A stretch of DNA of 64,000 nucleotides from an uncultured Anaeroplasmatales bacterium (GCA_964634685.1 CAZWLD010000004.1:12430-76429); one strand, 5' to 3'; positions 63,075 through 64,000 are shown, counted from the first letter of the stretch. Numbers and translations are program-made. The notes: a model not told the origin generated them from the sequence alone.

Positions 63075-63103
63075 TTGCATTTTTAGCAATTGTGATATAT
63101 ACT
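63075..63103 (+). promoter_or_regulatory. promoter of the riboswitch-GGDEF unit
   Basis: TTGCAT, 17 nt, then TATACT. Confidence 0.45.
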
Positions 63104-63124
63104 AAAGATAGAGATAACGTTTAC

Positions 63125-63210
63125 ATTTTAATATTGGCAAACTTAGTGAAAACTAAGGACGCAAAGCCATAGGATCTAAATCGTAAAGATATGATAGCCG
63201 GTTGCAAATT
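63125..63210 (+). ncRNA. c-di-GMP-I (GEMM-I) riboswitch aptamer
   Basis: GGCAAAC, a hairpin (CUUAG UGAAAA CUAAG), the invariant GACGCAAAGCC, a second hairpin, then UAGCCGGUUGC. This is collinear with the Vc2-type consensus. Confidence 0.8.
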
Positions 63211-63235
63211 TTTTTCATTAAAAATTTTTAATTGC

Positions 63236-63266
63236 AAATCCGGGTAACTGGATTTTTTATTTTTCT
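63236..63266 (+). terminator. expression-platform terminator (GNRA-loop hairpin plus U-run)
   Basis: ATCCGG-GTAA-CTGGAT followed by TTTTTTATTTTT. It is preceded by an alternative UUGCAAAUU / AAUUGCAA pairing that overlaps the aptamer 3' end. Confidence 0.5.
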
Positions 63267-63282
63267 AAAGGGAGGTTGTACT

Positions 63283-64000
63283 ATGGTTAAGAAATTACGA
63301 GATCGAAACAATGAATATTTGAATATGCGAATCAAAATGTTTAATACCGTCGGAACCGGAACCCTAATGATTTCGGTCATTGCCATTATTATTGCGATAG
63401 CTTCAGGCTTTGATCTATATACCTGGGTGACTTCAACTATTTGCTCAGTTCTCATCTTAGCTTTAATGCTTGCGGTTACGATGACGAAGAAATATGAGAT
63501 TGGTACGACCTTTTTATCCTTGACGATTAATTTAATTTTATTTCCAAGCTTATTTTTCACAAGTGGTGGAATAAGCGGAGCCGTACCGATGTTTTTTTTG
63601 ATTGGTATTTTGTTTTCAATGATTGTATTAGATGGAATAGTAGTTGTCTTAATTACCTTCATTGAGGTTTTGTTTTATATCTATTTGTTTTACTTATCTA
63701 TCCACTATCCTAATATTATTCCGGTAATCGATTCTTCAATTGTTAGACTTGTCAATTTAGCCGCGGGATTGATTATTTCCAGTATCATTGCTGGTTATAT
63801 TTTCCGAATCTTAATTAAACAGAACAATAAAGAAAGGCTTCGTATTGATAATTTATTAAAAAAGGATCCGTTAACTAAGGTTTATAACAGACGTTATCTA
63901 ATGGATGCGTTGACCTATTATATTGAAAACAAAGATTCATATCCTTTGTCAATTGCGATGTTTGATATTGATAATTTTAAGTCTGTAAATGATCAATACG
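63283..64000 (+). CDS. membrane-bound GGDEF diguanylate cyclase, N-terminal part (runs off the window; absent from the ORF track)
   Basis: AGGGAGG RBS, with ATG 63283 open to the window end. Five to six TM helices are followed by the GGDEF-domain onset DPLTKVYNRRYL ... IAMFDIDNFKSVND. Confidence 0.85.
   Translation, partial: MVKKLRDRNNEYLNMRIKMFNTVGTGTLMISVIAIIIAIASGFDLYTWVTSTICSVLILALMLAVTMTKKYEIGTTFLSLTINLILFPSLFFTSGGISGAVPMFFLIGILFSMIVLDGIVVVLITFIEVLFYIYLFYLSIHYPNIIPVIDSSIVRLVNLAAGLIISSIIAGYIFRILIKQNNKERLRIDNLLKKDPLTKVYNRRYLMDALTYYIENKDSYPLSIAMFDIDNFKSVNDQY

What the first reader, a model, noticed from the sequence alone, without database searches (positions are those of the whole stretch)
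63075..64000. c-di-GMP-I riboswitch controlling a membrane GGDEF cyclase (probable negative feedback); the gene is invisible in the ORF track
The aptamer (63125..63210) contains the invariant GACGCAAAGCC and flanking elements. Its 3' strand (GGUUGCAAAUU) can alternatively pair with AAUUGCAA (63230..63237), which in turn overlaps the 5' arm of a GNRA-loop terminator (63236..63266). Read this way, ligand binding frees the terminator, giving an OFF switch. High c-di-GMP would then shut down synthesis of a c-di-GMP synthase. The cyclase ORF starts at 63283 and runs off the window, while the ORF track shows only an antisense artefact (63228..63662).
Basis: partly seen in the sequence, partly recalled or inferred. 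Interest (0 to 1): 0.55.

Follow-up and report, generated by a model that had tools for sequence, protein, structure and literature searches.

The report
c-di-GMP riboswitch before a cyclase gene
This is a genuine class I c-di-GMP riboswitch in front of a membrane diguanylate cyclase gene, most likely switching the gene off when c-di-GMP is high; it is a correct but fairly ordinary find, because both the RNA class and its link to such genes are already known.

Summary
Rfam's c-di-GMP-I model (RF01051) matches 63126..63209 (+) over its full length at 75 bits (gathering score 35). It is the only Rfam hit in the window. A terminator hairpin (63236..63255) with a T-run, a GGGAGG ribosome site and an ATG at 63283 follow. 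The ORF runs off the window. An identical metagenome contig (L001) completes it as a 345-aa protein with 5-6 hydrophobic segments and a GGDEF domain. The GGEEF active site is intact; the canonical RxxD I-site is absent.

Four orthologous leaders (cyclases 51-56% identical) all carry the riboswitch. Their aptamers are nearly invariant and their expression platforms diverge. In each, the aptamer's P3 3' strand pairs with the terminator's 5' arm when the terminator's 3' arm is still missing. Enforcing the aptamer gives a terminator probability near 1. This is the layout of the validated C. difficile Cd1 OFF switch, so ligand-induced termination and negative feedback are the best reading. This is inferred, not shown.

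The window's own antiterminator is thermodynamically marginal. GEMM upstream of GGDEF genes has been reported since 2007. Verdict: a new member of a known kind, of modest interest.

The parts
63027..63046 (+). Intrinsic terminator of the upstream 80-aa lipoprotein-like gene (62779..63021). It marks the riboswitch leader as a separate transcription unit.
   Evidence: Terminator scan, (AGGGATG-AGTTAA-CATCCCT followed by TTATTTTTTT); ORF list.
63075..63103 (+). Putative sigma-A promoter: -35 TTGCAT 63075..63080, a 17-nt spacer, and -10 TATACT 63098..63103. The inferred start site is near 63110.
   Evidence: TTG.A and TATA.T are invariant columns across the four orthologous leaders (alignment A2). 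The consensus scan missed it because the -35 matches only 3 of 6 positions. Inferred, not mapped.
63126..63209 (+). c-di-GMP-I (GEMM-I) aptamer. The first hairpin spans 63137..63162 with a GAAA loop at 63148..63151. The second hairpin spans 63165..63203 and carries the CUAAA/UAUG tetraloop-receptor elements.
   Evidence: cmscan RF01051, 75 bits against a gathering score of 35, full model. The same family is found at 71-79 bits upstream of three orthologous cyclases. Two compensatory pair changes occur in the first hairpin of L087.
63198..63205 (+). Aptamer 3' strand (the 'A' strand, CCGGUUGC), shared between aptamer hairpin 2 and the antiterminator. By my mapping it includes C63205, the equivalent of the ligand-pairing C92 of Vc2.
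   Evidence: Folding of the truncated transcript. The mapping to Vc2 numbering is from memory of the Vc2 sequence. The roles of G20, A47 and C92 are taken from PMC5888326.
63234..63243 (+). Switching ('T') strand GCAAAUCCGG. It pairs either with 63198..63205 to form the antiterminator (AU bulge at 63238..63239) or with 63248..63255 to form the terminator.
   Evidence: There are 8 antiterminator pairs in the MFE for 3' ends 63243..63251. Only 11 of 300 platform shuffles reach the observed pairing.
63236..63264 (+). Intrinsic terminator: 8-bp stem AAAUCCGG/CUGGAUUU with a GUAA loop (63236..63255, -8.5 kcal/mol), then the T-run 63256..63264.
   Evidence: Stem pair probabilities are 0.73-1.0 when the aptamer is enforced.
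63270..63275 (+). Shine-Dalgarno GGGAGG, 7 nt before the ATG.
   Evidence: Read directly from the sequence. It is conserved as GGGAGG or GGGGG in the two leaders whose aligned stretch reaches the ribosome site, L083 and L086.
63283..64000 (+). 5' part (239 of 345 codons) of a membrane diguanylate cyclase gene. It has 5-6 hydrophobic segments (residues 22-174), and the GGDEF domain begins at about residue 194. The gene continues 321 nt beyond the window.
   Evidence: Translation; Pfam GGDEF. The full gene comes from the identical contig L001: 119 bits to GGDEF, RYGGEEF present. Hydropathy.
63228..63662 (-). Antisense 144-aa ORF: a chance ORF opposite the cyclase gene.
   Evidence: The + strand frame has strong GGDEF homology and conserved orthologs. 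No gene was called there on L001.

Best explanation
A sigma-A-type promoter near 63075..63103 drives a leader of about 170 nt that contains a class I c-di-GMP aptamer (63126..63209).

At low c-di-GMP, the nascent aptamer's 3' strand (63198..63205) is captured by the downstream switching strand (63234..63243). This antiterminator occupies the 5' arm of the terminator. RNA polymerase then reads through into the cyclase gene (63283 onward) and probably into a small 4-TM gene after it.

When c-di-GMP binds during transcription, hairpin 2 of the aptamer is locked. The switching strand stays free and pairs with 63248..63255. The resulting terminator and T-run stop transcription before the gene.

The gene product is a membrane diguanylate cyclase with an intact GGEEF site and no RxxD I-site. 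The circuit is therefore product-mediated negative feedback on c-di-GMP synthesis, acting at the level of transcription.

Shown: membership in the aptamer family, the terminator-like hairpin, the identity of the gene, and conservation of the arrangement. Inferred: ligand binding, the direction of the switch, and enzyme activity.
For: - Aptamer: RF01051 at 75 bits, full length.
- Gene: Pfam GGDEF at 119 bits on the full protein. GGEEF and the guanine-contacting Asn236 and Asp245 are invariant in the family alignment. RxxD is replaced by DDLI in the alignment to WspR.
- Conservation: all three more distant orthologs whose loci were recovered (51-56% identity; L083, L086, L087) have the riboswitch directly upstream, at 71-79 bits.
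- Platforms: the aptamers are nearly invariant while the platforms diverge. Each platform still ends in a hairpin plus T-run of -8.5 to -13.7 kcal/mol.
- Aptamer enforced: terminator core pairs have p = 0.97-1.0 in all four leaders.
- Transcript cut before the terminator's 3' arm: the MFE pairs the aptamer P3 3' strand with the terminator 5' arm in all four (5-8 pairs). Only 11, 1, 17 and 7 of 300 dinucleotide shuffles of the platform reach this.
- Layout: the terminator does not overlap the aptamer. It starts 27 nt after it. This is the P-A-T-H order of the experimentally characterised Cd1 OFF switch, whose antiterminator is likewise only transiently stable (PMC9262584).
Against: - No experiment exists. 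Everything about switching rests on nearest-neighbour folding, which ignores tertiary contacts and the ligand. The consensus P3 helix is never the MFE at any transcript length.
- In the window's own leader at full length, a terminator-compatible alternative hairpin (-29.1 kcal/mol) beats the antiterminator state (-27.4). The terminator has p about 0.9 even without the aptamer constraint. The same holds for L086. The window's switch could therefore be leaky or have a small dynamic range.
- The four leaders are homologous, so they are not four independent tests.
- The putative closing helix between the 5' and 3' flanks is A-U only and weak.
Confidence: 0.72

Rival explanations
1. Constitutive attenuator or non-transcriptional control. 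The terminator forms whether or not ligand is bound, and the aptamer acts through some other route such as mRNA stability or translation, or is only weakly functional in this genome.
For: In the window and in L086, the unconstrained full-length ensemble already has the terminator at p about 0.9. In the window, the terminator-compatible fold is 1.7 kcal/mol more stable than the antiterminator fold. The T-run can pair weakly with the ribosome site in the MFE.
Against: The antiterminator is the MFE during the decisive window, 3' ends 63243..63251. L083 and L087 have terminator p of 0.06 or less without the aptamer constraint. The complementarity exceeds shuffles in all four leaders. Cd1, a proven OFF switch, shows the same transient antiterminator. 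The ribosome site is not part of any aptamer-dependent alternative pairing.
Confidence: 0.13
2. ON switch: c-di-GMP binding prevents termination, giving positive feedback on the cyclase.
For: Many GEMM-I representatives have terminators that overlap the 3' side of the second hairpin, so ligand binding turns the gene on (Weinberg 2007, PMC1950547). Vc2 is described as an ON switch.
Against: Here the terminator (63236..63255) lies 27 nt beyond the aptamer and shares no nucleotide with it. Enforcing the aptamer raises rather than lowers terminator probability, in all four leaders.
Confidence: 0.06
3. The aptamer senses another cyclic dinucleotide, such as 3',3'-cGAMP (GEMM-Ib-like), so the circuit is cross-talk rather than self-feedback.
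For: One ortholog (L087) has A at the position I map to Vc2 G20. [quoted passage not shown]
Against: The window, L083 and L086 have G at that position (63136 in the window). Wild-type Vc2, with G at this position, discriminates strongly against cGAMP. The cyclase keeps the Asp (D245) that is invariant across the family alignment. From memory, Hypr cGAMP synthases have Ser at this position.
Confidence: 0.04

Closest known systems
Cd1 c-di-GMP-I riboswitch of Clostridioides difficile (flgB operon), a transcriptional OFF switch
   Same: It belongs to the same aptamer class (RF01051). It has the same order of elements: aptamer, then a switching strand, then a separate terminator ([PA][TH] when bound, P[AT]H when free). 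Its antiterminator is also only transiently stable, so control is kinetic (PMC9262584).
   Different: Cd1 controls flagellar genes rather than a c-di-GMP enzyme. The linker here is much shorter: about 25 nt between the aptamer and the switching strand, against a binding-competent window of about 60 nt in Cd1. Switching here is untested.
GEMM RNAs upstream of GGDEF, HD-GYP and EAL genes (Weinberg et al. 2007, Table 2; Sudarsan et al. 2008 as summarised in PMC12564702)
   Same: A class I c-di-GMP riboswitch sits in the 5' UTR of a gene for a c-di-GMP turnover enzyme.
   Different: Those are bioinformatic associations without a described mechanism. A 2019 review calls such cases rare (PMC6366702). 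This case adds a conserved four-member Erysipelotrichaceae lineage with an inferred OFF logic.
Vc2 riboswitch of Vibrio cholerae (tfoY), the structural reference for GEMM-I
   Same: It has a GAAA tetraloop in the first hairpin and a tetraloop receptor in the second. G20, A47 and C92 equivalents are present at 63136, 63163 and 63205 by my mapping.
   Different: Vc2 is described as an ON switch. It has a G+C-rich closing helix, whereas the flanks here are A-U only.
Allosteric product inhibition of diguanylate cyclases through the RxxD I-site (PleD, WspR)
   Same: The functional outcome is the same: c-di-GMP limits its own synthesis.
   Different: The I-site mechanism is post-translational. This cyclase has DDLI where WspR has RPSD, so that route is probably absent and the feedback is inferred to act on transcription instead.

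Membership tests
c-di-GMP-I riboswitch (Rfam RF01051, GEMM-I) | Scores above the curated gathering threshold of the covariance model over the whole model | tested here: met
   75.0 bits against 35, E = 6.7e-13, model positions 1-87 of 87.
c-di-GMP-I riboswitch (Rfam RF01051, GEMM-I) | Two adjacent hairpins, with a GNRA tetraloop on the first and a tetraloop receptor in the second (type 1 GEMM) | tested here: met
   GAAA loop at 63148..63151. CUAAA and UAUGA align to the upper-case consensus CUAA and AuGa. Two compensatory pair changes occur in hairpin 1 of L087.
c-di-GMP-I riboswitch (Rfam RF01051, GEMM-I) | Ligand-contacting nucleotides G20, A47 and C92 (Vc2 numbering) | tested here: inconclusive
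   G63136, A63163 and C63205 occupy the aligned consensus positions. Their roles are taken from PMC5888326. The mapping of Vc2 numbers onto Rfam columns is from my memory of the Vc2 sequence.
c-di-GMP-I riboswitch (Rfam RF01051, GEMM-I) | Located in the 5' UTR of the regulated gene, on the coding strand | tested here: met
   The aptamer ends 73 nt before the ATG on the same strand. A conserved promoter lies upstream and the previous gene ends in its own terminator.
c-di-GMP-I riboswitch (Rfam RF01051, GEMM-I) | Binds c-di-GMP with high affinity and selectivity | not testable with these tools
   Needs in-line probing, ITC or equilibrium dialysis.
Transcriptional OFF riboswitch (Cd1-type P-A-T-H layout) | An intrinsic terminator downstream of the aptamer and not overlapping it | tested here: met
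   Hairpin 63236..63255 plus T-run, with the aptamer ending at 63209. The same holds in L083, L086 and L087.
Transcriptional OFF riboswitch (Cd1-type P-A-T-H layout) | An antiterminator formed by the aptamer's 3' strand and the terminator's 5' arm, mutually exclusive with both | tested here: met
   Present in the MFE of the truncated transcript in all four leaders. It is reached in 1 to 17 of 300 shuffles. In the window it is the MFE only for 3' ends 63243..63251.
Transcriptional OFF riboswitch (Cd1-type P-A-T-H layout) | Termination increases with ligand | not testable with these tools
   Needs single-round transcription assays with and without c-di-GMP.
Diguanylate cyclase (GGDEF domain, PF00990) | Pfam GGDEF domain above the gathering score | tested here: met
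   38.9 bits on the in-window fragment. 119.4 bits against 23.8 on the full 345-aa protein from L001. L001 matches the window over all 8670 shared bases.
Diguanylate cyclase (GGDEF domain, PF00990) | Intact GG[D/E]EF active-site motif and guanine-binding Asn and Asp | tested here: met
   RYGGEEF at residues 267-273. N236, D245, G269, G270, E271 and E272 are invariant in the 23-sequence alignment. This lies outside the window and is seen on L001.
Diguanylate cyclase (GGDEF domain, PF00990) | RxxD inhibitory (I) site five residues before GGDEF. This is not defining for the family but is typical of feedback-inhibited cyclases. | tested here: not met
   DDLI aligns with RPSD of WspR. It is also absent in P0001-P0004 and present in 12 of 18 remoter homologs.
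Diguanylate cyclase (GGDEF domain, PF00990) | Synthesises c-di-GMP from GTP | not testable with these tools
   Needs an enzyme assay.

The most novel reading that the evidence does not exclude
In this Erysipelotrichaceae lineage, product feedback on a diguanylate cyclase has moved from the protein to the mRNA. The cyclase has lost the RxxD I-site that most of its remoter relatives keep. Its synthesis is instead shut off by a c-di-GMP OFF riboswitch. This would make it a natural case of a second-messenger riboswitch acting as a classical end-product feedback sensor. All five riboswitch-clade proteins lack RxxD. However, five of the eight remoter relatives examined also lack it without having a riboswitch. 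The link is therefore consistent with the data but not demonstrated.
Probability: 0.15. Interest if true: 0.45.

Novelty: new member of a known kind. Interest (0 to 1): 0.27.

Why it matters
c-di-GMP riboswitches usually control output genes for motility, adhesion or pili. [quoted passage not shown] A conserved OFF switch on a cyclase that lacks an I-site would be a simple homeostat for the messenger itself. It occurs in gut or rumen Erysipelotrichaceae, whose c-di-GMP signalling is, to my knowledge, little studied. It also offers four natural expression-platform variants built on one nearly invariant aptamer, which is convenient material for studying how OFF platforms evolve. It does not change what is known about the riboswitch class.

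Tried and rejected
- The genome-contig scan with the cyclase family alignment was swamped by generic GGDEF domains. It returned 80 unrelated loci (L003-L082) and no orthologs. I used them only as a crude background. A regex screen for the near-invariant ACGCAAA[GA]C core found no GEMM-like context on the coding strand upstream of any of the 80 genes. This was a regex screen, not a covariance-model search.
- The metagenome-contig scan for a 28-nt aptamer core gave 0 hits.
- Sudarsan et al. 2008 could not be read. Its content is cited only through reviews.
- The listing of cluster members gave no organism names. Organism placement rests on about 91% identity of the PPi-phosphofructokinase (42645..44300) to proteins named Bulleidia sp., Floccifex sp. 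and Erysipelotrichaceae bacterium.
In the MFE register it coexists with the terminator.
- The idea that the I-site was traded for the riboswitch was tested on four further RxxD-less homologs (L093-L096). None has a riboswitch, so the association is not supported beyond the single clade.
- Pfam gave no family for the conserved downstream 127-aa membrane protein or for the cyclase's N-terminal membrane domain.

Full report

Yes. Scanning the whole 64-kb window against Rfam 15 at gathering thresholds returns a single hit. It is RF01051 (c-di-GMP-I) at 63126..63209 on the + strand, at 75.0 bits against a gathering score of 35. E is 6.7e-13 and all 87 model positions are covered.

- The conserved GGACGCAAAGCC is at 63158..63169, and the GAAA tetraloop of the first hairpin is at 63148..63151.
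- The terminator scan reports AAATCCGG-GTAA-CTGGATTT at 63236..63255 followed by TTTATTTTT. Three such sites occur in 62600..64000, against 0.5 +/- 0.7 in shuffles.
- One of the other two sites, 63027..63046, ends the preceding 80-aa lipoprotein-like gene. The leader is therefore its own transcription unit.
- GGGAGG at 63270..63275 and ATG at 63283 open a frame that stays open to the window's end.
- The ORF lister does not report ORFs that run off the source. It lists only the antisense 63228..63662 ORF. The 'invisible gene' is a tool property.

**2. What is the gene?**

- The in-window fragment (239 aa) already matches Pfam GGDEF at its C-terminal 46 residues (38.9 bits, cutoff 23.8).
- The neighbouring 436-aa ArsB/CitMHS-type transporter (61402..62712, - strand) led to the metagenome contig L001. 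L001 is identical to the window over all 8670 shared bases.
- On L001 the gene is 345 codons long.
- Residues 22-174 contain five to six hydrophobic segments.
- The GGDEF domain scores 119 bits.
- The active site reads RYGGEEF. Asn236 and Asp245 of the FKxxNDxxGHxxGD stretch are invariant in a 23-member family alignment. From memory, these are the guanine-contacting positions of PleD.
- In the HMMER alignment to a WspR homologue (3i5a), the I-site RPSD aligns with DDLI. The canonical RxxD inhibitory site is therefore absent.
- A conserved 127-133-aa four-TM ORF with no Pfam family follows the cyclase in L001, L083 and L086, and is probably co-transcribed.
- The organism is an uncultured Erysipelotrichaceae. 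Its PPi-phosphofructokinase is about 91% identical to proteins named Bulleidia sp., Floccifex sp. and Erysipelotrichaceae bacterium.

**3. Is the arrangement conserved?**

A protein search found P0001 (98% identity) and three more distant orthologs at 51-56% identity (P0002-P0004). Beyond these, identity drops to 38% or less.

- The loci of P0002, P0003 and P0004 were recovered. Each carries an RF01051 hit of 71-79 bits directly upstream of the cyclase.
- Eight remoter homologs have none (L088-L090, L092-L096).
- In the alignment of the four leaders, the aptamer is almost invariant. The -35 TTG.A (63075..) and -10 TATA.T (63098..63103) boxes are also conserved.
- The expression platforms differ in sequence and length. 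Even so, each ends in a hairpin plus T-run of -8.5 to -13.7 kcal/mol.
- L087 shows two compensatory pair changes in the first hairpin.

**4. How does it most likely work?**

The terminator shares no nucleotide with the aptamer. It starts 27 nt after it. This is the layout of OFF switches, not of the ON-type GEMM RNAs whose terminator overlaps the second hairpin (PMC1950547).

I folded all four leaders with ViennaRNA.

- With the Rfam aptamer pairs enforced, as a proxy for the ligand-bound state, the terminator core pairs have probability 0.97-1.0 in every leader.
- On transcripts cut just before the terminator's 3' arm, the unconstrained MFE pairs the aptamer's P3 3' strand with the terminator's 5' arm in every leader.
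- In the window the pairs are C63198-G63243, C63199-G63242, G63200-C63241, G63201-C63240, U63202-A63237, U63203-A63236, G63204-C63235 and C63205-G63234. A63238 and U63239 are bulged.
- These folds are 8-13 kcal/mol better than the aptamer fold without ligand.
- Dinucleotide shuffles of the platform reach the observed number of such pairs in 11, 1, 17 and 7 of 300 trials.
- Stepwise folding of the window leader shows the antiterminator as the MFE for 3' ends 63243..63251.

This is the P-A-T-H scheme described for the C. difficile Cd1 OFF switch: [PA][TH] with ligand and P[AT]H without. In Cd1 the antiterminator is also only transiently stable (PMC9262584). The most likely mechanism is therefore c-di-GMP-induced premature termination, giving negative feedback on a c-di-GMP synthase.

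**5. Caveats**

- Nothing about ligand binding or switching is shown experimentally.
- Nearest-neighbour folding ignores the tetraloop-receptor contact and the ligand. The consensus P3 helix is never the MFE.
- In the window (and in L086), the full-length unconstrained ensemble already favours the terminator at p about 0.9.
That register leaves the terminator free. This state is -29.1 kcal/mol against -27.4 for the antiterminator state.
The CCGG/CCGG extension is needed. The window's switch may be leaky and must be kinetically controlled.
- L083 and L087 have decisive antiterminators, with terminator p of 0.06 or less without the aptamer constraint.
- The four leaders are homologous, so they are not independent replicates.

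**6. Rivals**

- An ON switch is unlikely, because enforcing the aptamer promotes the terminator.
- A constitutive attenuator is possible for the window's leader on thermodynamic grounds. It is disfavoured by the above-chance conserved complementarity and by the Cd1 precedent.
- A different ligand is unlikely. The window has G at the position I map to Vc2 G20 (63136). G20A is the change that makes Vc2 bispecific for cGAMP (PMC6140456).
- The L087 ortholog does carry A at that position.

**7. Comparison with what is known; novelty**

- GGDEF and HD-GYP domains were already listed among gene families apparently regulated by GEMM in the paper that described the motif (PMC1950547, Table 2).
- A 2025 review summarises GEMM as found upstream of ORFs encoding certain DGCs and PDEs (PMC12564702).
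- In line with rarity, none of 80 arbitrary GGDEF loci showed a GEMM-like core upstream in a crude regex screen.
- This is therefore a new member of a known kind: a correct annotation with a sensible, conserved OFF logic.

**8. The one potentially more interesting angle**

All five riboswitch-clade cyclases lack RxxD, whereas 12 of 18 remoter homologs keep it. This suggests feedback could have moved from the protein to the mRNA.

I tested this by fetching four further RxxD-less homologs. None has a riboswitch, and neither does RxxD-less P0020. Loss of the I-site is therefore common in this family irrespective of riboswitch control. The riboswitch clade represents a single evolutionary event. 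The idea remains possible but unsupported.

**9. Verdict**

- Novelty is low.
- Interest is about 0.27.

Noticed in passing
L087:200-285 (ortholog leader); window equivalent 63136: The riboswitch upstream of ortholog P0002 has A instead of G at the base just 5' of the first hairpin, which I map to Vc2 G20. That is the signature of cGAMP-binding or bispecific GEMM-Ib RNAs. Its cyclase nevertheless keeps the canonical Asp245.
   Followed up: partly
L001:1721-2104 (- strand; about 375-760 nt beyond the window's end), L083:4168-4551, L086:4075-4476: A conserved 127-133-aa ORF with about four hydrophobic segments and no Pfam family directly follows the riboswitch-controlled cyclase in three genomes. 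It is probably in the same operon and under the same riboswitch.
   Followed up: partly
L083:4840-6831: In the P0003 genome, the cyclase and small-ORF pair is followed by a 663-aa protein with a weak GGDEF match plus an EAL domain (a likely phosphodiesterase). The window's genome has a different gene at that position on L001.
   Followed up: no
cyclase residues 257-266 (L001:2162-3196, - strand): The RxxD I-site is absent in all five riboswitch-clade cyclases (DDLI, NDFV, DDMC, DDEI) and present in 12 of 18 remoter homologs. However, five RxxD-less remoter homologs have no riboswitch.
   Followed up: yes
window 63197-63235: A second pairing register of the aptamer 3' strand (63197..63204 with 63229..63235, over an inner A/U hairpin) coexists with the terminator. 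It is 1.7 kcal/mol more stable than the antiterminator state, so the window's switch may be leaky.
   Followed up: yes
L088, L089, L092 (genes at about 2106-2972 and 3001 onward): Remoter homologs of the cyclase (33-38% identity) sit about 30 nt behind a DUF7674 gene. This gene pair is conserved and has no riboswitch.
   Followed up: no
window 62779-63021: An 80-aa ORF with a lipoprotein-like signal (LGACG) and a Thr/Asn-rich tail, with no Pfam family, ends in its own terminator at 63027..63046. A 68-aa ORF occupies the same position in L083.
   Followed up: no
window 1-64000: GC skew is positive in every 4-kb bin, and almost all long ORFs are on the + strand. This fits a leading-strand segment of a low-GC (about 32%) Bacillota genome. 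No tRNA, rRNA or other Rfam family reaches its gathering score anywhere in the window.
   Followed up: no
window 63779-63794: A terminator-like hairpin (CCAGTA-TCAT-TGCTGG followed by TTATATTTTC) lies inside the cyclase coding region. It is probably a chance match.
   Followed up: no
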